From Escherichia coli (GTDB lineage: Bacteria; Pseudomonadota; Gammaproteobacteria; Enterobacterales; Enterobacteriaceae), in NCBI RefSeq assembly GCF_003018255.1, contig NZ_CP027440.1: 64,000 bases of DNA; one strand, 5' to 3'. Of the stretch, positions 1,597 to 56,464 are shown piece after piece; position 1 is the first letter of the stretch; each line of letters opens with the position of its first letter. The translations under genes and the position numbers were made by a program. The notes under the pieces are model-generated. The model was given only the letters and a program-made list of their open reading frames with translations, made no database searches and was not told the origin of the DNA.

Positions 1597-3255
<1,659 letters not shown>

Positions 3256-3460
3256 TTACTTTTAGTCGCTTTATTGCAGGTGAGATTTGCGCGGCATCAA
3301 CGGTAACACTTAAGTAACAACATTTAAATAATGTTTATAAATTATATTCTAATTTTAGAAACATTATAATTTCGTTGATTAATTATAGGGTTATTAGAAA
3401 TGAAGGGATTTTTAGCATATTAACCTGGCGGCAGCAGTCCGCCAGGTCAGCGTCGTAATA

Positions 3461-9450: not shown

Positions 9451-9599
9451 GGAACTTTTTAAGATTATTGCGGAATGACCAAATAAGCACCTAACATCAA
9501 GCAATATTAATTCAAGGTTAAAATCAATAACTTATTCTTAATTATTTGACAGCACTGAATGTCAAAACAAAACCTTCACTCGCAACTAGAATATCTTCC

Positions 9600-9692
9600 G
9601 CTATCATCATTAACTTTATTTATTACCGTCATTCATTTCTGAATGTCTGTTTACCCCTATTTCAACCGGATGCCTCGCATCCGGTTTTTTTT
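9600..9692 (+). ncRNA. micF: MicF antisense sRNA (represses ompF), transcribed divergently from ompC, with its own intrinsic terminator
   Basis: Sequence GCTATCATCATTAACTTTATTTATTACCGTCATTCATTTCTGAATGTCTGTTTACCCCTATTTCAACCGGATGCCTCGCATCCGGTTTTTTTT matches micF as I remember it; ends in the hairpin CCGGATGCCTCGCATCCGG plus U-tract. Confidence 0.9.
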
Positions 9693-13344: not shown

Positions 13345-13428
13345 CACCTGTAGGCCAGATAAGACGCGTCAGTGTCTTATCTGGCATTTGCACGGATTGC
13401 CGGATGCGGCGTAAACGCCTTATCCGTC
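13345..13428. repeat. REP-type palindromic element(s) between convergent rcsB and rcsC
   Basis: GTAGGCCAGATAAGACGCGTCAGTGTCTTATCTGGC ... GCCGGATGCGGCGTAAACGCCTTATCCG, typical REP sequence. Confidence 0.6.
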
Positions 13429-16278
13429 CTACGATTCCCGCGATTTCCTGACCCTCTCGGCATATACCGTCAGCGTCTGTTTTATCACATCCAGCGTTAC
13501 CGGCTTCGACAGGCAGCTGTCCATACCGGACTCCAGACACCGCTGCTTCTCTTCAGCCAACGCATTAGCAGTTACTCCGATTACCGGCAACGTCAGTCCC
13601 AACTGACGAATGCGTTGCGTCAAGCGGTAACCATCCATATTTGGCATGTTGACGTCGCTAAGCACGATATCAATATGATTCTTGCTAAGTACATTAAGCG
13701 CATCGACGCCATCATTCGCGGTTTTACATTGATAGCCCAACGATCCCAACTGATCTGCCAGCAGACGCCGGTTAATCGGATGATCATCCACGACCAGAAT
13801 CATCATATCGTCATTATCGCTGACCGCTTTGTCCGTTAACGGCAGAGCGTTAGCAGGATCGTCGCTCTCCATCTCGATCAAATAAATACGCGCCAACAAT
13901 GCCGGTAGCTCATGCGGGGCAGCCACACTGTGTACCCACTCTCCTGGCGCTTTCTCCAGCGGAATACCAATATGGCGACGACAGAAGGTCACAACCGCTC
14001 TACCCTGCCATTTTTTGCTCACTACCTCGTCAGTGATTAACACATCTTCGGGAGTCGGTTCCTGCCCTTCGTATGTTGTAACGACGATGCCGCTGCGCTG
14101 CAAACTGGTTTCCAGGAACTGACAGAGCGACGCATTGCGGACCGCCAGCCAGCAACGTTTACCACTCAACCCTTCCACGCCTTTTTTCTGCGGGTACTGA
14201 GCGCCGTACAACGGAATACGCACGGTAAACTGGCTGCCCATTCCCGGTTCTGAATCTACCGAGATGTCGCCGTCCATCATGCTGATCAGTTTTTCACAAA
14301 TCGCCAGACCCAGACCGGTCCCCTGGAAGTTACGCTGTACGCCCGTTCCGACCTGGAAGAAGGGATCAAACAAGCGCACCACTTCTTTCGCCGGAATCCC
14401 TACGCCGGTATCGCGAACACGGATAGAGAGATAATCGCCATCAGCGCGAACATGCAGAACTATACAGCCGGTATCGGTGAATTTTATGGCGTTACTCAAC
14501 AGGTTGGAGATGACCTGCTGTAAACGCATCGGGTCGCCATTTAAGGCCACTGGCACATCCGGTTCAATAAAGCAGTACAAGCCTAGCTGCTTGCGTACCA
14601 CCAGCGGTAAATAGTTGGCGGTGATGTGGTTCATCACTTCACGCGGTGAAAACTCACGCGGTTCGATCTTCAACTGTTCCGATTCAATCTTCGAGAAGTC
14701 GAGAATATCGCTGATAATTTTCAACAACAGGCTGGAAGAGTTGTTCATTGCCGTCACCAGACGATCGACGCCTTTCGGTAACTCTTTGGTTTGCAACAGA
14801 TCCAGGTTACCGATAATGCCATACAGCGGCGTTCGCAGCTCATGACTGACGGTGGCAAGGAACATCGATTTTGACTGGCTCGCCTGTTCCGCTGCTTGTG
14901 CCATCTCCTGCAACGACTCTTCCATCTTCACGCGCGAAGAAACATCCACCAGCACACAAATGGCCACGTTTTCATTACGATAGCGCGAATGGACGAAGCT
15001 GATTTGCAGGTTGGTATTGTTGCTGGTCAGGACATCAACAAAATTGACCTGCTGCCCACAGATAATTTGTGTCAGCCGTTGGCGGTCCTCATGCGTAAGC
15101 ATATTGAGATAGGTATGCGCCAGTTCGTTACTTAAAATATTGACGCCATCAGCGGTACGCAAAATGCAGATACCCACTGGCGCGGAGGCGACAATCTTGC
15201 GATTAAACTGCTCATGTTCTTCCAGTCGCAGGGCGTCGCTTTCCGCCGGAATGAAAATACGCCGCTCGTACATCCGCGCGAGAGTAAACAATGCAGCTCC
15301 GGCAAGCACATTCAGCAAAATTGCGTTAAGGATCAACATGCGAATGCGTTCCAGCACCTTATCAACCGGCACCGAATACACGATGCTTAGCGATGAGGGT
15401 GGCAGATTTTTCTTCAGCACCAGCTCCCGGAACCCTTCCGTATAGCCAAACCAGGAGCGTTCCTGCATCCAGCGAGGATCGCCCTTAATTTTGCTTTCTG
15501 GTCCGGTAAGCGAAATCAGGGTATGACCATTTTCATCAAGAATGGTAACCCCCATCGGCAACGTACCAGGTAAGAAAAAGTTCTCCATCCGGATGGTCTG
15601 CTCGACACCCAAAAGCGCCTGCAACCGGTTCGCCAGATAAACTGGCGTCAAGGCGTAAAAATACCCGACGCCAGGGCGCGGACCTTCGCTGATCCAGTAG
15701 AGGTTACTGCCACTATCATCTTGTGGTGCATTTCGATATTTATTAATGCGTTCATGCAAAGCTTTTAACGCGGTATCGCGTTCCACTGGCATATCACGCA
15801 GACCGAAATTGGCCATGCAGAGGTTATCGCTGCCGATTAAAAATACCCGGTTGAGATCGTAAGCCGCAGAAAAATTATCGCGCCAGTAGCGCATAAACCA
15901 CGCCAATGACTCCAGAGAACCTCGCCAGGTGTTACTCATTGCGGAACAATCAGAGTCAGCAAATAGCGGTTCAAACGCAGGCACATCCGTCTGCGTTTCT
16001 CGTCCACGCGGGGAAAGCACACCGTTTTCTGCCGATAAGCGATTTTCAGCTATGTACTTCAGCTCTTTCATCACATCAGAGGTGCGTTGAATAAAGCGCT
16101 GAGCCTGATCGGAACTCAGATTAAATTCCTGACGAATTTCCGATTCTCGCTGATGTAACGCATTAACGATGTAAAAAACGGATGAAAAAGCAATCAACAG
16201 CCAGAGCACTAACGCCAATGCTCTGAACATGTAGCGCGAGGCTTTCAGGGTTGTACGAAAAGAAGCAAGGTATTTCAA
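13429..16278 (-). CDS. rcsC: RcsC hybrid sensor histidine kinase
   Basis: 949-aa ORF; N-terminal TM, HisKA (HELRTPL), HATPase and C-terminal receiver domain. Confidence 0.92.
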   Translation of the reverse strand: MKYLASFRTTLKASRYMFRALALVLWLLIAFSSVFYIVNALHQRESEIRQEFNLSSDQAQRFIQRTSDVMKELKYIAENRLSAENGVLSPRGRETQTDVPAFEPLFADSDCSAMSNTWRGSLESLAWFMRYWRDNFSAAYDLNRVFLIGSDNLCMANFGLRDMPVERDTALKALHERINKYRNAPQDDSGSNLYWISEGPRPGVGYFYALTPVYLANRLQALLGVEQTIRMENFFLPGTLPMGVTILDENGHTLISLTGPESKIKGDPRWMQERSWFGYTEGFRELVLKKNLPPSSLSIVYSVPVDKVLERIRMLILNAILLNVLAGAALFTLARMYERRIFIPAESDALRLEEHEQFNRKIVASAPVGICILRTADGVNILSNELAHTYLNMLTHEDRQRLTQIICGQQVNFVDVLTSNNTNLQISFVHSRYRNENVAICVLVDVSSRVKMEESLQEMAQAAEQASQSKSMFLATVSHELRTPLYGIIGNLDLLQTKELPKGVDRLVTAMNNSSSLLLKIISDILDFSKIESEQLKIEPREFSPREVMNHITANYLPLVVRKQLGLYCFIEPDVPVALNGDPMRLQQVISNLLSNAIKFTDTGCIVLHVRADGDYLSIRVRDTGVGIPAKEVVRLFDPFFQVGTGVQRNFQGTGLGLAICEKLISMMDGDISVDSEPGMGSQFTVRIPLYGAQYPQKKGVEGLSGKRCWLAVRNASLCQFLETSLQRSGIVVTTYEGQEPTPEDVLITDEVVSKKWQGRAVVTFCRRHIGIPLEKAPGEWVHSVAAPHELPALLARIYLIEMESDDPANALPLTDKAVSDNDDMMILVVDDHPINRRLLADQLGSLGYQCKTANDGVDALNVLSKNHIDIVLSDVNMPNMDGYRLTQRIRQLGLTLPVIGVTANALAEEKQRCLESGMDSCLSKPVTLDVIKQTLTVYAERVRKSRES

Positions 16279-41284: not shown

Positions 41285-43570
41285 ATGAATCAGAATCTGC
41301 TGGTGACAAAGCGCGACGGTAGCACAGAGCGCATCAATCTCGACAAAATCCATCGCGTTCTGGATTGGGCGGCAGAAGGACTGCATAACGTTTCGATTTC
41401 CCAGGTCGAACTGCGCTCCCACATTCAGTTTTATGACGGTATCAAGACCTCTGACATCCACGAAACCATTATCAAGGCTGCCGCAGACCTGATCTCCCGT
41501 GATGCGCCGGATTATCAGTATCTCGCCGCGCGCCTGGCGATCTTCCACCTGCGTAAAAAAGCCTACGGCCAGTTTGAGCCGCCTGCGCTGTACGACCACG
41601 TGGTGAAAATGGTCGAGATGGGCAAATACGATAATCATCTGCTGGAAGACTACACGGAAGAAGAGTTCAAGCAGATGGACACGTTTATCGATCACGACCG
41701 TGATATGACCTTCTCTTATGCTGCCGTTAAGCAGCTGGAAGGCAAATATCTGGTACAGAACCGCGTGACCGGCGAAATCTACGAAAGCGCCCAGTTCCTT
41801 TATATTCTGGTTGCCGCGTGCCTGTTCTCGAACTACCCGCGTGAAACGCGCCTGCAATACGTGAAGCGTTTTTACGACGCGGTTTCCACATTTAAAATTT
41901 CGCTGCCGACGCCAATCATGTCCGGCGTGCGTACCCCGACTCGTCAGTTCAGCTCCTGCGTACTGATCGAGTGCGGCGACAGCCTGGATTCCATCAACGC
42001 CACCTCCAGCGCGATTGTTAAATACGTTTCCCAGCGTGCCGGGATCGGCATCAACGCCGGGCGTATTCGTGCGTTGGGTAGCCCGATTCGCGGTGGCGAA
42101 GCATTCCACACCGGCTGTATTCCGTTTTACAAACATTTCCAGACAGCGGTGAAATCCTGCTCTCAGGGCGGTGTGCGCGGCGGTGCGGCAACACTGTTCT
42201 ACCCGATGTGGCATCTGGAAGTGGAAAGCCTGCTGGTGTTGAAAAACAACCGTGGGGTTGAAGGCAACCGCGTGCGTCATATGGACTACGGGGTACAAAT
42301 CAACAAACTGATGTATACCCGTCTGCTGAAAGGTGAAGATATCACCCTGTTCAGCCCGTCCGACGTACCGGGGCTGTACGACGCGTTCTTCGCCGATCAG
42401 GAAGAGTTTGAACGCCTGTACACCAAATATGAGAAAGACGACAGCATCCGCAAGCAGCGTGTGAAAGCCGTTGAGCTGTTCTCGCTGATGATGCAGGAAC
42501 GTGCGTCTACCGGTCGTATCTATATTCAGAACGTAGACCACTGCAACACCCACAGCCCGTTTGATCCGGCTATTGCACCAGTGCGCCAGTCTAACCTGTG
42601 CCTGGAAATCGCCCTACCGACCAAACCACTGAACGACGTCAACGACGAGAACGGTGAAATCGCGCTGTGTACGCTTTCTGCTTTCAACCTGGGCGCAATT
42701 AACAGCCTGGATGAACTGGAAGAGCTGGCAATTCTGGCGGTTCGCGCACTCGACGCACTGCTGGATTATCAGGATTACCCGATCCCGGCCGCTAAACGTG
42801 GAGCGATGGGGCGTCGTACGCTGGGTATTGGTGTGATCAACTTCGCTTACTACCTGGCGAAGCACGGTAAACGCTACTCCGACGGCAGCGCCAACAACCT
42901 GACGCATAAAACCTTCGAAGCCATTCAGTATTACCTGCTGAAAGCGTCTAATGAGCTGGCGAAAGAGCAAGGCGCGTGCCCGTGGTTTAACGAAACCACT
43001 TACGCGAAAGGGATCCTGCCGATCGATACCTATAAGAAAGATCTGGATGCCATCGCTAATGAGCCGCTGCATTACGACTGGGAAGCACTGCGTGAGTCAA
43101 TCAAAACGCACGGCCTGCGTAACTCCACGCTTTCTGCTCTGATGCCGTCAGAGACCTCTTCGCAGATCTCTAACGCCACTAACGGTATTGAACCGCCGCG
43201 TGGTTACGTCAGCATCAAAGCGTCGAAAGACGGTATTCTGCGCCAGGTGGTGCCGGACTACGAGCATCTGCACGACGCCTATGAACTGCTGTGGGAAATG
43301 CCGGGTAACGATGGCTATCTGCAACTGGTGGGTATCATGCAGAAATTTATCGATCAGTCGATCTCTGCTAACACCAACTACGATCCGTCACGCTTCCCGT
43401 CAGGAAAAGTGCCGATGCAGCAACTGCTGAAAGACCTGCTCACCGCCTACAAATTCGGGGTCAAAACGCTGTATTATCAGAACACCCGTGACGGTGCTGA
43501 AGACGCACAAGACGATCTGGTACCGTCAATCCAGGACGATGGCTGCGAAAGCGGCGCATGTAAGATCTGA
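41285..43570 (+). CDS. nrdA: Ribonucleoside-diphosphate reductase 1, alpha subunit
   Basis: 761-aa ORF beginning [26 protein letters not shown] (ATP-cone), with the class I RNR catalytic core. Confidence 0.95.
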
Positions 43571-43635
43571 TATTGAGATGCCGGATGCGGCGTAAAATGC
43601 CTTATCCGGCATTAAACTCCCAACAGGACACATTC

Positions 43636-44766
43636 ATGGCATATACCACCTTTTCACAGACGAAAAATGATCAGCTGAAAGAACCGATGTTCTTTGGTCA
43701 GCCGGTTAACGTGGCTCGCTACGATCAGCAAAAATATGACATCTTCGAAAAGCTGATCGAAAAGCAGCTCTCTTTCTTCTGGCGTCCGGAAGAAGTTGAC
43801 GTTTCTCGTGACCGTATCGATTACCAGGCACTACCTGAACACGAAAAACACATCTTTATCAGCAACCTGAAATATCAGACGCTGCTGGACTCCATTCAGG
43901 GTCGCAGCCCGAACGTGGCACTGCTGCCGCTGATCTCGATCCCTGAGCTGGAAACCTGGGTCGAAACCTGGGCGTTCTCAGAAACCATTCACTCTCGTTC
44001 TTATACCCATATCATTCGTAATATCGTTAACGATCCGTCTGTTGTGTTTGACGATATCGTCACCAACGAGCAGATCCAGAAACGTGCGGAAGGGATCTCC
44101 AGCTATTACGATGAGCTGATCGAAATGACCAGCTACTGGCATCTGCTGGGCGAAGGTACCCACACCGTTAACGGTAAAACCGTAACCGTTAGCCTGCGCG
44201 AGCTGAAGAAAAAACTGTATCTCTGCCTGATGAGCGTTAACGCGCTGGAAGCGATCCGCTTCTACGTCAGCTTTGCTTGTTCCTTTGCCTTTGCAGAACG
44301 CGAACTGATGGAAGGTAACGCCAAAATTATTCGCCTGATTGCCCGCGATGAAGCCCTGCACCTGACCGGTACTCAGCATATGCTGAATCTGCTGCGCAGC
44401 GGCGCGGATGATCCGGAGATGGCGGAAATTGCCGAAGAATGTAAGCAGGAGTGCTATGACCTGTTTGTCCAGGCGGCACAGCAAGAGAAAGACTGGGCGG
44501 ATTATCTGTTCCGTGACGGTTCGATGATTGGTCTGAATAAAGACATTCTCTGCCAGTACGTTGAATACATCACCAATATCCGCATGCAGGCAGTCGGTTT
44601 GGATCTGCCGTTCCAGACACGCTCCAACCCGATCCCGTGGATCAATACCTGGCTGGTGTCTGATAACGTGCAGGTTGCTCCGCAGGAAGTGGAAGTCAGT
44701 TCTTATCTGGTCGGGCAGATTGACTCGGAAGTGGACACCGACGATTTGAGTAACTTCCAGCTCTGA
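43636..44766 (+). CDS. nrdB: Ribonucleoside-diphosphate reductase 1, beta subunit
   Basis: Start set at [13 protein letters not shown] (376 aa); di-iron/tyrosyl-radical subunit; REP-like palindrome in the nrdA-nrdB spacer. Confidence 0.93.
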
Positions 44767-45020
44767 TGGCTCGCGTTACCCTGCGCATCACTGGCACACA
44801 ACTGCTGTGCCAGGATGAACACCCTTCCCTTCTGGCGGCGCTGGAATCCCACAATGTGGCGGTTGAGTACCAGTGCCGCGAAGGTTACTGCGGTTCCTGT
44901 CGCACGCGCCTTGTTGCAGGCCAGGTGGACTGGATTGCCGAACCGTTAGCCTTTATTCAGCCGGGGGAAATTTTGCCCTGTTGTTGCCGGGCAAAAGGCG
45001 ATATTGAAATCGAGTTGTGA
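44766..45020 (+). CDS. yfaE: YfaE, 2Fe-2S ferredoxin associated with NrdB
   Basis: 84-aa ORF with a plant-type ferredoxin Cys pattern (CREGYCGSC...CCC); start overlaps nrdB stop. Confidence 0.88.
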   Translation: MARVTLRITGTQLLCQDEHPSLLAALESHNVAVEYQCREGYCGSCRTRLVAGQVDWIAEPLAFIQPGEILPCCCRAKGDIEIEL

Positions 45021-45025
45021 TCGGG

Positions 45026-45073
45026 TACTAGCGCCAGATACGACGCTTACGCGTATTATCTGGCCTACAACGA
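45026..45073. repeat. REP-type palindrome between yfaE and inaA
   Basis: CGCCAGATACGACGCTTACGCGTATTATCTGGCCTAC. Confidence 0.55.
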
Positions 45074-45724
45074 TTACATGGCGTAGTAATACGCTTTCAC
45101 CTGCTCCCAGTCCGCTTTAGGGATCGGCTCCAGATATTTTTCCAGCTGGCGGAAGTCATGATTAATCGCTTTATCGCGACGCAAGCGGCGACGACTTTTC
45201 TCCAGATCAAGAAAACCAGCTTCTGACTTACCTTCTGTTTTCACATAGATATGGCGAACATAGCAACAGCCATGCTGACGATTAACGCTATGCATTTTCT
45301 TAAACGCCAGCGCCACTGCTTTCAACATGGCTTGCCGTACTTCGTCAGAATAGGGCGTTACTGCATGCTGGGCATACCAGTCAGCAATGCTGATGAACCC
45401 CGCCATATCTTCAGTCACCAGCAACGCGCGCCATTCCCCCTCAATTTTCACCGCTTCACCAAAAACGATCTTCGGCACGATGACACCGGCCCGTTCCAGT
45501 TCTTTAATTACCGCAACCTCACGGACAATCGTTGGTCGGCCGAACGGATAACGTACGGAATGAAACAGATGATGCGTCATGCGCTTTACATATAGCTTTT
45601 TGCCGTTGCGCTCGACGCATTGCACCCCGCTCATACCATTACGGCGATAGTTAGGCTCTTCAACCCAGTCGCCCTCTGTTGCCCACCAGTGATTAAATTC
45701 GTCGTGCTTTGCTGAAACTGCCAT
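45074..45724 (-). CDS. inaA: InaA, acid-inducible Kdo/WaaP-family kinase-like protein
   Basis: 216-aa ORF recognised as InaA. Confidence 0.85.
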   Translation of the reverse strand: MAVSAKHDEFNHWWATEGDWVEEPNYRRNGMSGVQCVERNGKKLYVKRMTHHLFHSVRYPFGRPTIVREVAVIKELERAGVIVPKIVFGEAVKIEGEWRALLVTEDMAGFISIADWYAQHAVTPYSDEVRQAMLKAVALAFKKMHSVNRQHGCCYVRHIYVKTEGKSEAGFLDLEKSRRRLRRDKAINHDFRQLEKYLEPIPKADWEQVKAYYYAM

Positions 45725-45926
45725 ACCCTATCGCCTGTCGTTTTTTATTAACGACAATGACTATAGATGTTTAGCTGAGGAAAATCTTAATAATACGTGT
45801 TGTATTGACGAGTATCTTATGCCGGGAACAAGTCATCTCGCTCAAAATAATTGCAATTAAGGATAACCCACAGACTTTAATGAAGAGTGGTATCGGATAG
45901 CACATAAGTGCCATCCGGTAGTTAAT

Positions 45927-47003
45927 TTACTCTTTATTAAGAAATTTTACTGCCTTATCAGGGAAATCAGTAAATAGCCCATTTACACCCGCTTTGTTAT
46001 ACAGAGCATCATATAACTGATTCACATCAGTAGTGTATTCAGGCAGTTTATCTGACCGCACGGTATAAGGATGCACTACCAGCTTGTTCTGCTGAGCATC
46101 TTGCACCATGCCAGTGAGTTTGATATTACCCGGCTGCGATGTCTCCTCAATCAACATATGGTAATCCGGACCAATACCATCTGCATATTCCGCCACCTGT
46201 TTCATGGCTCCCGGCTTAAACATCCAGTCGTAGTTGTAATTAACCCAGCTTCCGTCCGGCTGTTTCTGCTGCGTTTCATTCCAGTCGGTATAGGCAATCA
46301 GCTGTACCAGATTGAGGTCCATGCCCATTTTAGGTTCCAGCTCATTCTTAATACGCTTCAGTTCATCGGCATCAAAACATTGCAAATAAACTTTGTCGTC
46401 CTTACCGCTGTAACCATATTTCTTCAGCACTTCCAGCGTTTTTGCCGCAATATCCTTCCCTTCCTGATGATGGAACCACGGCGCTTTAATTTCTGGATAG
46501 ATACCGATATTTTTCCCGGTAGAGTGATTTAACCCCTGAACAAATTCAATCTCTTCTTCGAAAGTGTGTACCCGGAAGTCAGATTTACCCATCGGGAAAC
46601 GGCCCGGATAAGTCTGTACTTTCTTACCGTTTTCAATATCGAAACCTTCGGTAAATTTCAGTGACTTAATTTCATCGAGCGTGAAATCTATCGCGTAGTA
46701 ACGACCGTCTTTGCGCGCCCGATCCGGGAAACGATCGGCAACATCAGTAACACGATCGAGATAATGGTCATGCAGGACAACCAGATGGTCGTCCTTCGTC
46801 ATCACCAAATCCTGTTCCAGATAATCCGCTCCCTGCGCATACGCCATCGCTTTTGCTGGCAGCGTATGCTCCGGCAAATATCCACTGGCACCGCGATGGG
46901 CGATGACTATTTTTTCGTTGCTGTCCGCCGCCATTGCACTACTTCCCATGACCATAGTGCTCATCATGATCGCCATGCTAAGGTTTTTCAGCGTCAATTT
47001 CAT
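45927..47003 (-). CDS. glpQ: Periplasmic glycerophosphodiester phosphodiesterase
   Basis: Start set at MKLTLKNLSMAIMM (358 aa, signal peptide) inside the 377-codon ORF; HRG catalytic motif (IAHRGASGYLPEHT). Confidence 0.9.
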   Translation of the reverse strand: MKLTLKNLSMAIMMSTMVMGSSAMAADSNEKIVIAHRGASGYLPEHTLPAKAMAYAQGADYLEQDLVMTKDDHLVVLHDHYLDRVTDVADRFPDRARKDGRYYAIDFTLDEIKSLKFTEGFDIENGKKVQTYPGRFPMGKSDFRVHTFEEEIEFVQGLNHSTGKNIGIYPEIKAPWFHHQEGKDIAAKTLEVLKKYGYSGKDDKVYLQCFDADELKRIKNELEPKMGMDLNLVQLIAYTDWNETQQKQPDGSWVNYNYDWMFKPGAMKQVAEYADGIGPDYHMLIEETSQPGNIKLTGMVQDAQQNKLVVHPYTVRSDKLPEYTTDVNQLYDALYNKAGVNGLFTDFPDKAVKFLNKE

Positions 47004-47007
47004 GCCA

Positions 47008-48366
47008 TTAGCCTCCGTTGCGTTTTTGCAGTAATTCCTGATGGCGACGTTTTTCGCCAATCATCACAACAATCAACAAGATAACCGCGAGAATGCTGCC
47101 GCCAATCATTACCATAAAGCCGCCATCCCAGCCGAAGAAGTCCACGGTGTAGCCAACAATCGCGCTCGCCGCCACCGAACCGCCCAGGTAACCAAACAGC
47201 CCGGTAAAGCCCGCTGCCGTACCTGCCGCTTTTTTCGGTGCCAGTTCCAGCGCATGCAGACCGATCAACATCACAGGACCGTAAATCAGGAAGCCGATAA
47301 CAATCATACAGATCATATCGACGTTCGGATTGCCCGCCGGGTTCATCCAGTAAACGATAGTCGCGATGGTCACCAGTGTCATAAAGAAGACGCCGGTGGC
47401 CCCACGGTTGCCACGGAAGACTTTATCCGACATCCAGCCGCACAGCAGGGTGCCCGGAATGCCCGCATACTCATAGAAGAAGTAGGCCCAGGAGGATTTA
47501 TCCAGCGCGAAGTGTTTCACCTCTTTCAGATAAGTCGGTGACCAGTCGAGGATGCCGTAACGCAGCAGATAAACGAACACGTTGGCGATAGCGATGTACC
47601 ACAGCAATTTGTTCGGCAGCACGTACTGCATGAAGATTTGCTTCGCAGTCAGCTCCTGTTCCGCTTTTTCGTTATAGTCGTCCGGATAATCATTTTTGTA
47701 CTCTTCGATCGGCGGCAGGCCACAAGATTGCGGGGTATCGCGCATCATCGCAAAGGCGAACAGTGCCACCAGAATGGCGCAGAAAGCGGGCATATAGAGC
47801 GCCGCGTGCCAGTCATTGAACCAGGCCATCCCCAGCAGGAACAGCAGCGGCGGAATACCACCACCGACGTTGTGCGCACAGTTCCACACTGACACAATGC
47901 CGCCACGTTCTTTCTGCGACCACCAGTGCACCATAGTACGACCACACGGCGGCCACCCCATCCCCTGGAACCAACCGCAGAGGAACAACAGTACAAACAT
48001 CACCGCAATGCTCGACGTCGCCCACGGCACAAAGCCCATAAACAACATCACTGCCGCCGCCAGAATCAAACCTGCGGGCAGGAAAACGCGCGGATTCGAG
48101 CGATCCGACACCGAGCCCATGATGAATTTCGAAAATCCATAAGCGATCGAGATCCCAGAAAGCGCGAAACCTAAATCACCGCGTGAGAATCCCTGCTCGA
48201 CCAGGTAAGGCATAGCAAGCGCAAAGTTCTTACGAACCAAATAGTAAGCAGCATAGCCAAAGAATATCCCCAGGAAAATTTGCCAGCGCAATCGACGATA
48301 AGTCGGATCGATCTCCGCGGCAGGTAAGCGCGCTTTGTGTGGCGCTGGTTTAAAAATACTCAACAT
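47008..48366 (-). CDS. glpT: Glycerol-3-phosphate:phosphate antiporter (MFS); apparently intact
   Basis: 452-aa 12-TM MFS protein recognised as GlpT; first gene of glpTQ. Confidence 0.93.
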
Positions 48367-48638
48367 TGATAGCCTCCGTGGCCCGTGGTCTTATTTATGA
48401 TTAACAGCCTGATTCAGTGGGAGAACCTGCCGTTTCTTGAGTTGCCGCGATGTTAAGAAAACATTCATAAATTAAATGTGAATTACCGCACACATTATTA
48501 AATACGATGGTTTAAATGTTCAGAATGACGCATGAAATCACGTTTCACTTTCGAATTGTGAGCGAATATGCGCGAAATCAAACAATTCATGTTTTTACTA
48601 TGGCTAAATGGTAAAAAACGAACTTCAGAGGGATAACA
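48367..48638. promoter_or_regulatory. Divergent glpTQ / glpACB control region (candidate CRP and GlpR operator sites)
   Basis: AT-rich 272-bp spacer between divergent operons with CRP-like TGTGA-N6-GCACA and several AATGTTC/GAACTT motifs resembling GlpR operator half-sites; individual sites not resolved. Confidence 0.5.
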
Positions 48639-52703
<4,065 letters not shown>

Positions 52704-52717
52704 AACTCCCATCTGAT

Positions 52718-52749
52718 GCCCGGTAAGCATGTTGTTACCGGGCATTTTT
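52718..52749 (+). terminator. Rho-independent terminator after glpC
   Basis: Hairpin GCCCGGTAA-N8-TTACCGGGC followed by ATTTTT. Confidence 0.75.
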
Positions 52750-52896
52750 GCGTCCACGATTCCGCGCTCAATGTATACGTTGCAACGCAGTGAAAATTCC
52801 TCTGAAAACGTCTCGCAAAGGCTGAAACTGGCAGATGTCAAAGGCCTGGGATAACCGTAATGTCGCGTTATCATAAATATCAGGTGACGGACAACC

Positions 52897-53856
52897 ATGA
52901 CCGAATCAACAACCTCCTCCCCGCATGATGCGGTATTTAAAACCTTTATGTTCTCGCCCGATACGGCGCGAGATTTTCTCGAAATACATCTGCCAGAGCC
53001 GCTGCGCAAGCTTTGCAACCTGCAAACCTTACGCCTGGAACCCACCAGCTTTATTGAAAAAAGTTTACGCGCTTACTACTAGGATGTTTTGTGGTCGGTG
53101 GAAACCAGCGACGGTGACGGCTATATCTACTGCGTGATTGAACATCAAAGTTCTGCAGAAAAGAATATGGCTTTTCGACTAATGCGCTATGCCACTGCCG
53201 CCATGCAACGTCACCTGGATAAAGGCTATGACAGAGTTCCGCTGGTGGTGCCATTGCTGTTTTATCATGGCGAAACCTCGCCCTACCCGTACTCACTCAA
53301 CTGGCTGGATGAGTTTGACGATCCGCAACTTGCCCGGCAGTTGTACACCGAAGCTTTTCCGTTGGTGGATATCACCATCGTACCTGACGATGAGATCATG
53401 CAACATCGGCGTATAGCTCTGCTGGAACTGATTCAAAAGCATATTCGCGACCGCGATTTAATCGGTATGGTCGACAGGATCACCACGCTTTTGGTTAGAG
53501 GCTTCACTAATGACAGCCAGCTACAAACGCTGTTTAATTATCTGCTGCAATGCGGCGATACCTCCCGTTTCACCCGCTTTATTCAGGAGATTGCCGAACG
53601 TTCACCACTACAAAAGGAGAGATTAATGACTATTGCTGAACGGCTACGGCAGGAAGGACATCAAATTGGCTGGCAGGAAGGTAAATTAGAAGGCTGGCAG
53701 GAGGGGAAATTGGAGGGTTTGCAGAAAGGCAAAGTAGAAGGTATGCATGAACAAGCCATTAAAATTGCCTTGCGCATGCTGGAACAGGGCTTTGAACGTG
53801 AGATTGTGCTGGCGACAACCCAACTCACTGATGCTGATATTCCGAACGGTCATTAA
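52897..53856 (+). pseudogene. yfaD: yfaD/rpnE, Rpn-family (transposase_31 / PD-(D/E)XK) nuclease gene interrupted by one in-frame TAG at 53080-53082
   Basis: 61-codon ORF ([17 protein letters not shown]...LRAYY*) and the following 255-codon ORF (from TTG 53089, [21 protein letters not shown]...) are in the same frame, separated only by a TAG. Confidence 0.6.
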
Positions 53857-53868
53857 AAGGAGAGATTA

Positions 53869-54042
53869 ATGACTATTGCTGAACGGCTACGGCAGGAAGG
53901 ACATCAAATTGGCTGGCAGGAAGGCATGCATGAACAAGCCATTAAAATTGCTTTGCGCATGCTGGAGCAGGGCATTGATCGTGATCAGGTGCTCGCGGCC
54001 ACTCAGCTAAGCGAAGCCGATCTGGCAGCGAATAACCACTAA
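53869..54042 (+). CDS. ypaA: YpaA, small Rpn C-terminal-domain paralogue (tandem partial copy of the yfaD 3' end)
   Basis: 57-codon [38 protein letters not shown]...; about 70 nt including the AAGGAGAGATTAATG leader are identical to 53613-53680 inside yfaD. Below the 60-aa cutoff of the ORF track. Confidence 0.65.
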   Translation: MTIAERLRQEGHQIGWQEGMHEQAIKIALRMLEQGIDRDQVLAATQLSEADLAANNH

Positions 54043-54051
54043 TTAACACAG

Positions 54052-54080
54052 GCCCACAGCCGATCCCCATGGGCCTTTGA
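54052..54080. terminator. Candidate bidirectional terminator between ypaA and rhmA
   Basis: Hairpin AGGCCCA-N13-TGGGCCT followed by TTTGATATCAA, between convergent genes. Confidence 0.45.
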
Positions 54081-54082
54081 TA

Positions 54083-54886
54083 TCAATAACTACCTTTTAC
54101 GCGTGGCCCATTTTTGCCTGATTTAAACATCGCCAGTCGTTGATCCAGGGCATCGCTGTAGAGCATCGTGTCAACGCCAACAGCGACAAAGTTCGCTCCC
54201 CACGCCAGGCATTGCTGCGCCATATCAGGAGCCACAGCCAGAAAACCAGCCGCTTTACCCGCAGCACGGATCCGCCGAATGCTGGTTTCAATAATTCGCT
54301 GCACTTCCGGGTGCCCGGCGTTATCCGGGTAGCCCAACGACGCAGAAAGATCCGCAGGTCCAATAAACACGCCATCAATCCCTTCAACATCGAGGATTTC
54401 GTCCAGGTTATCCAGTGCCGTTTTACTTTCCACCTGCACCAACAGACAAAGCGAATCGTTGACTTGCGCCATGTAATTCTCAATGCGTCCCCAGCGCGCA
54501 GCCCGTGCCACACTGGCCCCAACACCACGCTCACCGTAGGGAGGATAGCGCGTGGCAGACACCACCTGACGTGCCTGATCGGCAGTATCGACCATTGGGA
54601 TCAGTAGAGTTTGCGCGCCAATATCCAGGACTTGTTTAATCAGCGGCTTACTGCCTTCCACCGGACGGATCACGGGGTGGCTGGCATAGGGCGCTACCGC
54701 CTGTAGCTGGTGATAAAGATCCTGAATGGTGTTTGGCGCATGCTCCCCGTCAATCAGCAACCAGTCATAACCGGAAGTGGCGGCAATTTCTGCCATATAG
54801 GCAGTCGTTGAGCTTAACCACAGACCAATTTGCACTTCGCCCTTGCGTAAACGTTCTTTAAAGGGATTGGTTAATAATGCGTTCAT
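54083..54886 (-). CDS. rhmA: 2-keto-3-deoxy-L-rhamnonate aldolase
   Basis: 267-aa HpcH/HpaI-family aldolase ORF recognised as RhmA (YfaU). Confidence 0.88.
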
Positions 54887-54902
54887 CGTGTTCCTTAACT
54901 AT

Positions 54903-56039
54903 TTAATGATGTGCCACGTCGGTCTGCGCAACAGTGCGATTTACACGCAGAGTGAAAATAATCAGCGAACCGATGACCGCCACCGCTGCCAGCGTCAGTA
55001 ATCCCGCCGCATCGCTGGAAAATAACGTTTCTGCTTTCACGCGCAGGATCGGGGCAATAAACCCGCCCACTGCACCAAACAGGTTTATAAAACCAATCCC
55101 CGCAGCCAGCGCCGTACCGGAAAGAAGCTGTGTCGGCATCGTCCAGAACACTGGCTGTACGGCAATAAACCCGATGGCTGCAACACACAGCGCAACGATC
55201 GCCAGTAATGTCAGCGCCGCGACATTACGCCGCTCGCCGGTTTTATCGGAATAGCGCGGAATAAGCCAGGTCCCAAACAAGGCCGCGACCCACGGAATGG
55301 CGGTGACCACCGACGCCGTAAAGCCCACTTTTGTCCCCAACAATGCAGCAACCTGCGTCGGCAGGAAGAAAATTAATCCGTAAACCGCCACCTGAATGGT
55401 CAGGTAGATAATCGCCAGTTGCCAGACTCGGCCATTACGCAGCGCATCGCTCAATCGAGAAGTCACTTTCTGTTGTTCTTCACTTGCCAGTTGGTTGATA
55501 AGCAACGTTTTTTCTTCTTTACTCAGAAAACGTGCCTGCTCCGGCGTGTCATCAAGCCAAAAGAATGTGAATACCCCAGCGCCGACTGCCAGCAATCCTT
55601 CAATCACAAACATCCAGAACCAGCCGGGATGCCCCATAAATCCATGCATCTCCAGCAGCGCGCCGGAAAGCGGTGATCCCAGTGTTAACGCCAACGGTGC
55701 GCCCATATAGAACAGCCCCATAATGCTGGCGCGATTACGCTGCGGAAACCATTGCGAGGTGAGATAAATCATACCAGGGAAGAACCCGGCCTCCGCAGCA
55801 CCAAGCAGAGTACGAACGATCAGAAATTTCGCTTCAGTATCGGCCCATGCCATGGCTGCCGAAAGAAATCCCCACAGCAGTGTTGTCGTACCAATCCAGG
55901 TTCTTGCCCCCAGTTTGCGCATCAAAAGATTCGCCGGAACACCCAGAAACGCATATACCACAAAGAAAATGCCTGCTCCCAGACCAGCCCTTCGATAATA
56001 CTTTGCTGTACAGCTGCAGGTTGCCAGGCAAGCAGGCAT
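54903..56039 (-). pseudogene. rhmT: rhmT (yfaV) L-rhamnonate MFS transporter, 5'-truncated remnant
   Basis: 378-codon ORF is MFS-like from GAGIFFVVYAFLGVP onward, but the first ~20 codons are non-hydrophobic and overlap the rhmR remnant; the expected first TM helix is absent. Confidence 0.65.
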
Positions 56040-56464
56040 TTACCTATTCCGGAGCGATAAAGCGAAAGGCTTTTTCCTTCATGGGAACGCACGCTGATAG
56101 TGGCTGATGACTCCACTTTCAAAATGTAATAAGCGCTGCCGTTATCAATAATCCCCAGGTGACATAACAGCCCAGTGGTATCCATCAGTTGCGTCAAACG
56201 CGGTCGAGCCAGTTCCCGGAGATCCATCTTGCTTAACGCATGACCGGAAAGCTCCACCAGCCTGGTCCACAAACAAAAATTTTCCTGGTGATCAAGGCTA
56301 AGAAAACGCTGACGCCTGAGTTCATTAAGCAGCAAATAGGCCGTGCTTTTAGGGATCCCCAATGTGTCAATGATCGTCGCAGCACTACAGGGGCCAATGC
56401 GGGCAATCAAATTGAGAATATCAATAGCCCGTGTCAGGGCGGGAACTTTGCTTGATTCCAACAT
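55922..56464 (-). pseudogene. rhmR: rhmR (yfaX) IclR-family regulator, 3'-truncated remnant
   Basis: 180-codon ORF has an intact IclR-type HTH (TRAIDILNLIARIGPCSAATIIDTLGIPKSTAYLLLNEL) but ends after a partial effector domain with an out-of-frame tail (FSLWYMRFWVFRRIF) that is rhmT sequence read in another frame. Confidence 0.65.

What the first reader, a model, noticed from the sequence alone, without database searches (positions are those of the whole stretch)
53077..53091. Single in-frame amber codon splits the Rpn-family nuclease gene yfaD/rpnE
The 61-codon and 255-codon ORFs are in one frame, separated only by TAG at 53080-53082 (reading ...[27 protein letters not shown]...). The stop falls between the N-terminal HDxxFK region and the predicted PD-(D/E)XK core, so the full-length nuclease would not be made unless the stop is suppressed or translation restarts at the in-frame TTG at 53089. 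It could be a real nonsense allele, a sequencing error, or relevant in an amber-suppressor background.
Basis: partly seen in the sequence, partly recalled or inferred. Interest (0 to 1): 0.45.

Follow-up and report, generated by a model that had tools for sequence, protein, structure and literature searches.

The report
Natural amber nonsense allele of rpnE
A single C-to-A change turns serine codon 62 of the E. coli toxin-nuclease gene rpnE into a stop codon, a real but rare natural knockout that leaves the gene's two small antitoxin genes intact, so it is an ordinary pseudogene with a small twist.

Summary
TAG at 53080-53082 lies in frame between a 61-codon and a 255-codon ORF that together are rpnE (yfaD), between glpC and ypaA/rhmA on an E. 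coli chromosome. In relatives the codon is TCG (Ser62). The closest intact allele (strain 104) differs from the window at this one base in 1,231 nt.

It is not a sequencing error. The same TAG with identical flanks occurs in at least eight independent public assemblies. It also occurs on a second haplotype about 3.5% divergent (isolate SC418), where RefSeq already annotates a pseudogene with an internal stop. Only 1 of about 5,400 complete E. coli genomes carries it.

The stop sits one codon before Asp63 and separates Asp11 from Asp63, Glu82 and Gln84. These residues are essential in the paralogue RpnA. Every in-frame restart codon lies at or after codon 65, so a restart cannot rebuild an active nuclease. 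The internal start of the small antitoxin RpnE-S (53626) and the duplicate ypaA (53869) are intact.

Best reading: a toxin-null, antitoxin-retaining rpnE allele that is carried on recombination blocks. Suppression is unlikely but could not be tested genome-wide. Interest is low.

The parts
52897..53079 (+). rpnE codons 1-61, the N-terminal fragment. It contains His10-Asp11 (Asp11 at 52927-52929).
   Evidence: for the ORF. One search gives a gapless alignment to K-12 RpnA and RpnE.
53080..53082 (+). Amber codon TAG replacing TCG (Ser62). The mutated base is 53081 (C to A).
   Evidence: Only 1 of 5,426 complete E. coli genomes matches a 41-mer centred on the TAG.
53083..53856 (+). Remainder of rpnE, codons 63-319 plus the TAA stop. 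It is still fully open and holds Asp63 (53083-85), Glu82 (53140-42), Gln84 (53146-48) and the PDDE motif.
   Evidence: Apart from 53081 it is identical to the intact allele of strain 104.
53089..53100 (+). First in-frame restart candidates: TTG at codon 65 (53089-91) and GTG at codon 68 (53098-100). An out-of-frame ATG at 53084-86 lies closer to the stop.
   Evidence: Pairing to the anti-Shine-Dalgarno sequence is weak (-4.8 kcal/mol with TAG, -4.1 with TCG), against -8.7 at the rpnES start.
53612..53681 (+). Copy 1 of a 70-nt perfect direct repeat. It carries the Shine-Dalgarno AAGGAG (53614-19) and the ATG (53626-28) of the internal gene rpnES.
53626..53856 (+). rpnES, a gene within a gene: a 76-aa C-terminal protein, the antitoxin by homology. 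It is intact.
   Evidence: The K-12 internal start was shown by Ribo-RET and SPA tagging (10.1101/520783; PMC10400941).
53648..53753 (+). Array with a 24-nt period that encodes the hypervariable four-amino-acid repeats. It is 20 aa longer than in K-12.
   Evidence: The role of the repeats is described in PMC10400941.
53855..53924 (+). Copy 2 of the 70-nt direct repeat, carrying the Shine-Dalgarno sequence and start of ypaA.
53869..54042 (+). ypaA (rpnESs), the second free-standing copy of the small antitoxin-type protein (57 aa). It is intact.
   Evidence: PMC10400941.

Best explanation
This is a genuine, heritable loss-of-function allele of rpnE (yfaD). A C-to-A transversion at 53081 converts Ser62 (TCG) into an amber stop. 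Translation from the rpnE start ends after 61 residues, so the long form RpnE-L cannot be made. RpnE-L is a PD-(D/E)XK nuclease and the toxin half of an Rpn toxin-antitoxin and antiphage module. The fragment carries Asp11 but not Asp63, Glu82 or Gln84. Any reinitiation at TTG (codon 65) or GTG (codon 68) would lack Asp11 and Asp63. The small protein RpnE-S has its own Shine-Dalgarno sequence and ATG at 53626, and in K-12 its own internal promoter. It and its duplicate YpaA are untouched, so the locus has become antitoxin-only. The allele is rare and travels with its surrounding block by homologous recombination. Shown here: the mutation, its reality in independent assemblies, its position relative to conserved catalytic residues, and the intactness of rpnES and ypaA. 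Inferred: loss of nuclease activity (from RpnA mutants), continued expression of RpnE-S and YpaA (from K-12 data), and near-neutral fitness effect.
For: The TAG and the shared frame are. The codon is TCG in K-12, strain 104 and strain 98192, and strain 104 differs only at 53081 in 1,231 nt and has an intact 319-aa CDS. The exact 61-aa product is on 22 contigs. Loci L004-L007 and L009-L013, from ENA metagenome and Logan SRA assemblies, carry the TAG with 99.97-100% identical flanks. The same TAG is in the complete genome SC418, annotated as a pseudogene with an internal stop, and in L017-L019. RpnE aligns without gaps to RpnA through residue 255, with D11, D63, E82 and Q84 conserved. RpnA D11A, D63A and E82A lose all phenotypes, and D63A has less than 0.006 of wild-type nuclease activity (PMC5350276). 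All in-frame restart codons are at or after codon 65, with weak Shine-Dalgarno pairing. The rpnES and ypaA starts have a strong Shine-Dalgarno sequence (-8.7 kcal/mol) inside a perfect 70-nt repeat. RpnS proteins are antitoxins of RpnL and ypaA is a second RpnE-S copy (PMC10400941). The internal starts are the major initiation sites of rpn genes (10.1101/520783). Recombination blocks: L017 and L018 differ at 93 sites in 6.2 kb but at none across rpnE-ypaA. The window and L011 are identical from 43523 to 56173, apart from the 48-bp rhmT deletion noted in passing, with SNP clusters outside.
Against: No reads were available for the window's own genome. The ORF downstream of the stop shows no secondary lesion on any carrier, although the carriers are too similar to one another for decay to be expected. 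The identical substitution on two haplotypes about 3.5% apart is not what simple neutral decay predicts, and could mean selection, a hotspot or micro-conversion. The suppressor status of the source genome is unknown. K-12 RpnE was inactive in toxicity, SOS and recombination assays (PMC5350276), so calling it a 'toxin' rests on family membership, not on a direct test.
Confidence: 0.85

Rival explanations
1. Sequencing or assembly error: the true codon in this genome is TCG and rpnE is intact.
For: The window differs from the intact allele of strain 104 by only this base. All but one of about 5,400 complete genomes lack the TAG.
Against: The same TAG with identical flanks is found in independent assemblies made by different pipelines and from different samples. 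It is also in the complete genome SC418 and its relatives.
Confidence: 0.02
2. The amber codon is read through, either by a suppressor tRNA in the host or brought by a phage, or by natural leakiness. Functional full-length RpnE is then still made, constitutively or conditionally.
For: The downstream ORF is fully open with all catalytic residues in place. The allele persists on three backgrounds.
Against: The 64-kb window has no tRNA gene. Exact supE-type and supF-type anticodon alleles occur in 157 and 1 of 5,426 complete genomes. The 60 supE carriers listed are mostly named K-12-derived laboratory strains and all are K-12-sized. The window is 3.5% diverged from K-12 at this locus. The TAG is not conserved among orthologues. 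Basal UAG readthrough in E. coli is low (general knowledge).
Confidence: 0.03
3. Ribosomes terminating at the TAG reinitiate at TTG 53089 or GTG 53098. This gives an N-terminally truncated RpnE (lacking residues 1-64 or 1-67) that keeps the C-terminal oligomerisation domain and acts as a nuclease-dead, antitoxin-like or dominant-negative protein.
For: In-frame TTG and GTG lie 6 and 15 nt after the stop, and the mutation slightly improves an AGGA Shine-Dalgarno-like motif. Gene callers place a 252-aa gene at the GTG. Reinitiation after early nonsense codons is classical in lacI (general knowledge).
Against: Shine-Dalgarno pairing is weak (-4.8 against -8.7 kcal/mol at the true internal start). 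An out-of-frame ATG at 53084 is closer to the stop and would compete. The product lacks Asp11 and Asp63. There is no expression evidence.
Confidence: 0.1
4. The allele is positively selected. Loss of the RpnE long form with retention of the antitoxins is advantageous, which would explain why the identical change is seen on divergent haplotypes.
For: The same C-to-A change occurs on haplotypes about 3.5% apart, with the flanking differences only 32 nt upstream and 73 nt downstream of it. The TAG block has been transferred between backgrounds. The antitoxin genes are intact on all carriers.
Against: Frequency is very low, 1 of about 5,400 complete genomes. A conversion tract under 105 nt or plain coincidence among many null alleles is not excluded. 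Other rpnE null alleles were not counted. K-12 RpnE has no measurable toxicity to relieve.
Confidence: 0.12

Closest known systems
rpnE (yfaD, b2244) with ypaA of E. coli K-12: the RpnE-L / RpnE-S / RpnE-Ss module (Kingston 2017, PMC5350276; Zhong 2023, PMC10400941)
   Same: The synteny glpC-rpnE-ypaA-rhmA is the same. DNA identity is about 96.5%. The catalytic signature D11/D63/E82/Q84 is the same. The internal Shine-Dalgarno sequence and ATG for the small protein, and the duplicated small gene, are the same.
   Different: Codon 62 is TAG instead of TCG, so the long form cannot be made. The tail carries five more four-amino-acid repeats than in K-12.
Pseudogene H1D11_RS10770 of E. coli isolate SC418 (NZ_LR778147.1), annotated 'ISNCY family transposase, internal stop'
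   Same: It has the identical TCG-to-TAG change at codon 62, and rpnES and ypaA are intact.
   Different: Its haplotype differs by about 3.5%. It has one more repeat, a 73-aa YpaA and an intact rhmT. The window's lineage also carries the rhmT-rhmD-rhmR deletion.
Intact window-type allele WP_000140533.1 of E. coli strain 104 (NZ_CP029164.1)
   Same: It is identical over 1,231 nt, including the tail repeats and ypaA, except for one base.
   Different: It has TCG at codon 62 and an uninterrupted 319-aa CDS.
Toxin-antitoxin loci with an inactivated toxin and a retained ('orphan') antitoxin (a general class, cited from general knowledge)
   Same: The toxin reading frame is broken while the antitoxin coding sequences and their translation signals are kept.
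   Different: Here the antitoxin is encoded inside the toxin gene itself. A pseudogene label on the whole CDS therefore hides a probably functional small gene.

Membership tests
Rpn / YhgA-like recombination-promoting nuclease (RpnE orthologue) | PF04754 (Transposase_31) domain | tested here: met
   E=1e-87 over residues 8-209 of the translation with Ser at codon 62.
Rpn / YhgA-like recombination-promoting nuclease (RpnE orthologue) | Score above the curated cutoff of the RpnE equivalog model NF007418 | tested here: met
   707.6 bits against a cutoff of 583. The RpnA model scores 415.9, below its cutoff.
Rpn / YhgA-like recombination-promoting nuclease (RpnE orthologue) | PD-(D/E)XK signature residues Asp11, Asp63, Glu82 and Gln84 | tested here: met
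   gapless alignment to RpnA with all four residues conserved. Their necessity was shown for RpnA only (PMC5350276).
Rpn / YhgA-like recombination-promoting nuclease (RpnE orthologue) | Uninterrupted reading frame able to give the full-length enzyme | tested here: not met
   TAG at codon 62. It is therefore a pseudogene allele of the family member, not a functional member.
Rpn / YhgA-like recombination-promoting nuclease (RpnE orthologue) | Chromosomal position between glpC and ypaA/rhmA | tested here: met
RpnL-RpnS intragenic toxin-antitoxin / antiphage system (Zhong 2023) | In-frame internal start with a Shine-Dalgarno sequence, giving a small C-terminal protein | tested here: met
   AAGGAG at 53614-19 and ATG at 53626, with -8.7 kcal/mol pairing, identical to the ypaA start. 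Expression itself was not testable here.
RpnL-RpnS intragenic toxin-antitoxin / antiphage system (Zhong 2023) | Hypervariable four-amino-acid repeats in the shared tail | tested here: met
   an array with a 24-nt period, with 20 extra residues relative to K-12.
RpnL-RpnS intragenic toxin-antitoxin / antiphage system (Zhong 2023) | A producible toxin (RpnL) | tested here: not met
   The amber codon lies one codon before Asp63.
RpnL-RpnS intragenic toxin-antitoxin / antiphage system (Zhong 2023) | Toxicity of RpnL, neutralisation by RpnS, and phage protection | not testable with these tools
   These need experiments. K-12 RpnE was inactive in toxicity, SOS and recombination assays (PMC5350276).
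Suppressed or programmed-readthrough amber gene | A cognate suppressor tRNA (CUA anticodon) in the genome | tested here: inconclusive
   The window holds no tRNA gene and the rest of the genome is not available. supE-type and supF-type alleles were found only among laboratory-type strains in the genomes listed.
Suppressed or programmed-readthrough amber gene | Conservation of the in-frame stop among orthologues | tested here: not met
   1 of 5,426 complete genomes has the TAG 41-mer. No genome is identical over the 81-mer.

The most novel reading that the evidence does not exclude
The identical Ser62-to-amber change on two haplotypes about 3.5% apart reflects selection for an antitoxin-only rpnE locus. 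The nuclease would be lost while RpnE-S and YpaA are kept, for example as immunity against incoming rpnE-type toxins. A more exotic version is an amber-gated nuclease that is completed only when an infecting phage supplies an amber-suppressor tRNA.
Probability: 0.08. Interest if true: 0.5.

Novelty: already known. Interest (0 to 1): 0.18.

Why it matters
The direct significance is small. It documents a rare natural knockout of one of five Rpn nuclease paralogues in E. coli.

Two practical points follow. First, annotating the whole CDS as a pseudogene, as RefSeq does for SC418, hides the gene-within-a-gene rpnES, whose start signals and coding sequence are intact. The neighbouring ypaA is also often mislabelled as a partial pseudogene. 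Second, natural strains that lack RpnE-L but keep RpnE-S and YpaA are ready-made material. They could be used to test whether chromosomal RpnE has any toxin or phage-defence role, and whether Rpn antitoxins have a function of their own.

Tried and rejected
(1) The sequence search of the PDB with the read-through RpnE found nothing. PADLOC gave only a marginal unrelated hit.

(2) The exact-pattern scan of the metagenome collection for the TAG 41-mer found 0 loci, but the TCG control found only 7. The scan therefore says nothing about allele frequency.

(3) Several contigs end exactly at codon 61 (L008, L020-L026). This first looked like a breakpoint or polymorphism hotspot. It is a selection effect of looking up an exact 61-aa product, because N-terminal fragments of many other lengths (50-85 aa) are equally common at contig ends. 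An intragenomic repeat with rpnA was excluded, since the longest identical run is 16 nt.

(4) The idea that the mutation creates a useful Shine-Dalgarno sequence (AGGA) for a restart was rejected. The gain is only 0.7 kcal/mol, and the motif abuts an out-of-frame ATG.

(5) The consensus promoter scan found no sigma-70-like site in 52650-54120. The internal rpnES promoter therefore rests on published K-12 data only.

(6) I could not decide between independent recurrence and a conversion tract under 105 nt for the two TAG haplotypes, because there is no informative SNP between 53049 and 53154.

(7) I could not confirm that SC418 is absent from the 97 unlisted supE-type genomes.

Full report
**Observation.** The window is an ordinary E. 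coli chromosomal segment running from the ompC/micF region to arnA. At the reported site, an ORF at 52897-53082 (61 aa, ending ...LRAYY) and an ORF at 53089-53856 (255 aa from TTG) share one frame. They are separated only by TAG at 53080-53082. With a sense codon at that position the 319-aa translation matches Pfam PF04754 over residues 8-209 (E=1e-87). It also matches NCBIfam NF007418, the RpnE equivalog that NCBI confusingly names 'ISNCY family transposase', at 707.6 bits against a cutoff of 583. The locus lies between glpC and ypaA/rhmA, as in K-12.

**What the codon was.** In K-12, strain 104 and strain 98192 codon 62 is TCG (Ser), so the window carries a C-to-A transversion at 53081. Strain 104 (NZ_CP029164.1) has an intact 960-nt CDS. 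It differs from the window at this one base over the 1,231-nt rpnE-ypaA segment.

**Real or error, and how common.**
- No complete RefSeq E. coli genome is identical over an 81-mer around the stop.
- A 41-mer centred on the TAG can seed a megablast hit only if the A is present. It hits exactly one of 5,426 genomes, isolate SC418 from sediment (NZ_LR778147.1). There PGAP annotates the CDS as a pseudogene with an 'internal stop'.
- An exact look-up of the 61-aa product finds it on 22 contigs.
- Loci L004-L007 and L009-L013, from ENA metagenome scaffolds (at least one labelled human gut) and Logan SRA assemblies, carry the TAG with flanks 99.97-100% identical to the window.
- The allele is therefore real and heritable. 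It is rare, and it is not present in K-12.

**Two haplotypes and recombination.** SC418 and loci L017-L019 carry the identical TAG on a haplotype about 3.5% different from the window. That haplotype has N-terminal ...FTPETARDF..., one more tail repeat and a 73-aa YpaA. The nearest differences between the two haplotypes flank the TAG at 53049 and 53154. The shared stop therefore reflects either independent recurrence or a conversion tract shorter than 105 nt, and I could not decide between these.

Within the SC418 type, L017 and L018 differ at 93 sites in 6.2 kb but at none across a 2.27-kb block covering rpnE, ypaA and most of rhmA. The window and scaffold L011 are identical from 43523 to 56173, apart from one 48-bp indel, with SNP clusters on both sides. 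The TAG-bearing block thus sits in recombination mosaics.

Contigs that merely end at codon 61 (L008, L020-L026) are an artefact of the exact-length look-up and are not evidence of anything. A paralogue repeat was excluded as their cause.

**Consequence for the protein.** RpnE aligns without a gap to RpnA through residue 255, and Asp11, Asp63, Glu82, Gln84 and the PDDE motif are conserved. In RpnA the D11A, D63A, E82A and Q84K mutants lose recombination, toxicity and SOS phenotypes. Purified D63A has less than 0.006 of wild-type nuclease activity (PMC5350276).

The amber codon is the codon immediately before Asp63. The 61-aa fragment keeps Asp11 only. Every in-frame restart codon (TTG codon 65, GTG codon 68, GTG 80, ATG 91 and later) lies beyond Asp63. 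Residues 62-64 would therefore be missing even from a two-fragment combination. Restart is also poorly supported. Anti-Shine-Dalgarno pairing is -4.8 kcal/mol, against -4.1 for the TCG allele and -8.7 at the true internal start. An out-of-frame ATG at 53084 is closer to the stop. Only readthrough could give an active enzyme.

**Suppression.**
- The window contains no tRNA gene.
- As a test of how common natural amber suppressors are, 41-mers carrying the supE (glnV CTA) and supF (tyrT CTA) anticodons were searched.
- supE-type alleles occur in 157 of 5,426 complete genomes. The 60 listed are mostly named K-12-derived laboratory strains such as C600, DH5alpha, DH1 and J53, and all are K-12-sized. 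This also serves as a positive control for the method.
- supF-type occurs in one laboratory strain.
- The window is 3.5% diverged from K-12 at this locus.
- Suppression is therefore unlikely, but it is untested for the source genome.

**What remains functional.** Zhong et al. 2023 (PMC10400941) showed that rpn genes are toxin-antitoxin and antiphage modules. The long protein RpnL is a toxic nuclease. A small C-terminal protein RpnS is made from an internal promoter and internal start, and it is its antitoxin. [quoted passage not shown] Ribo-RET data indicate that the internal starts are the major initiation sites of rpn genes (10.1101/520783).

In the window the internal start (AAGGAG at 53614-19, ATG at 53626) and the 76-aa rpnES are intact. 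So is the 57-aa ypaA (53869-54042). The two starts lie in a perfect 70-nt direct repeat. The tail has 20 residues more than in K-12. The locus is thus toxin-null but antitoxin-retaining.

Continued expression of the small genes is inferred from K-12 data and was not shown here. K-12 RpnE was inactive in all of Kingston's assays, so loss of the long form may carry little cost.

**Comparison and verdict.** The thing is a nonsense pseudogene allele of a known gene. The identical allele is already annotated as a pseudogene in a public complete genome. It is not a sequencing error, and it shows no sign of programmed recoding. The only mildly unusual features are two:
- the same substitution appears on two divergent haplotypes;
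- a whole-CDS 'pseudogene' label conceals an intact gene-within-a-gene.

Interest is low and the novelty class is 'already known'. The most novel reading not excluded is selection for an antitoxin-only locus, or an amber-gated nuclease, at a probability of about 0.08.

**Local context.** Among the 26 complete reference genes between yfaT and arnC compared with the closest complete genome, plus the part of arnA inside the window, rpnE is the only one with a premature stop. The adjacent rhamnonate locus is also decayed, as listed under things noticed in passing.

Noticed in passing
window 55971-55982 (junction): A deletion of about 1.73 kb removes the first 162 nt of rhmT (yfaV), all of rhmD and the last 289 nt of rhmR (yfaX). 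The ends join at a 12-bp microhomology. It is shared with metagenome scaffold L011 but absent from the closest complete genome (2017.09.02CC) and from SC418. The rhamnonate locus next to rpnE is therefore also decayed in this lineage.
   Followed up: partly
window 55207/55208: A further 48-bp in-frame deletion lies inside the rhmT remnant, between 8-bp direct repeats (CGCCAGTA). It is seen only in the window, not in L001, L004, L005 or L011, which are otherwise 99.9-100% identical.
   Followed up: partly
window 53612-53681 and 53855-53924; loci L005 and L009: Perfect 70-nt direct repeats carry the starts of rpnES and ypaA. Two TAG-lineage contigs (L005, L009) lack the 243 bp between them, which fuses rpnE to the ypaA tail. 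This is either a real repeat-mediated deletion, as described for rpn loci, or an assembly collapse. Other Logan contigs end inside the repeat at 53641.
   Followed up: partly
L016 (SC418, NZ_LR778147.1) 2337-3308; L017-L019: The identical Ser62 amber allele sits on a second haplotype about 3.5% divergent. Within that type, a 2.27-kb block covering rpnE, ypaA and most of rhmA is identical between backgrounds that differ by about 2.8% in glpABC, which is evidence of transfer by recombination.
   Followed up: yes
L001 2508-2693, L003 2508-2693, L014 25858-26043 (equivalent to window 53857-54042): RefSeq/PGAP labels the ypaA region in many genomes as 'hypothetical protein; incomplete; missing N-terminus' (pseudo), starting right after the rpnE stop. 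Yet an ATG with the same strong Shine-Dalgarno sequence as rpnES lies 12 nt further on. This looks like an annotation artefact for a real small gene.
   Followed up: no
window 52834-52846 and 54072-54084: A 13-nt inverted repeat (GATGTCAAAGGCC / GGCCTTTGATATC, 92% complementary) brackets the rpnE-ypaA module. The right arm overlaps the terminator-like hairpin at 54050-54076. It may be chance.
   Followed up: no
window 9599-9692 and 13353-13429: MicF sRNA (116.8 bits) is found upstream of ompC. A naRNA4 element (70 bits) lies between the rcsB and rcsC regions. Both are expected features of this chromosomal region.
   Followed up: no
protein cluster of rpnE N-terminal fragments (P0003 and others): A 60-aa 'partial' RpnE N-terminal fragment (WP_179841585.1) is recorded on 226 contigs, more than neighbouring fragment lengths. 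This might mark a common contig break, for example an insertion, near codon 60-61 in some lineage. However, 5,402 of 5,403 complete genomes are contiguous across this site.
   Followed up: partly
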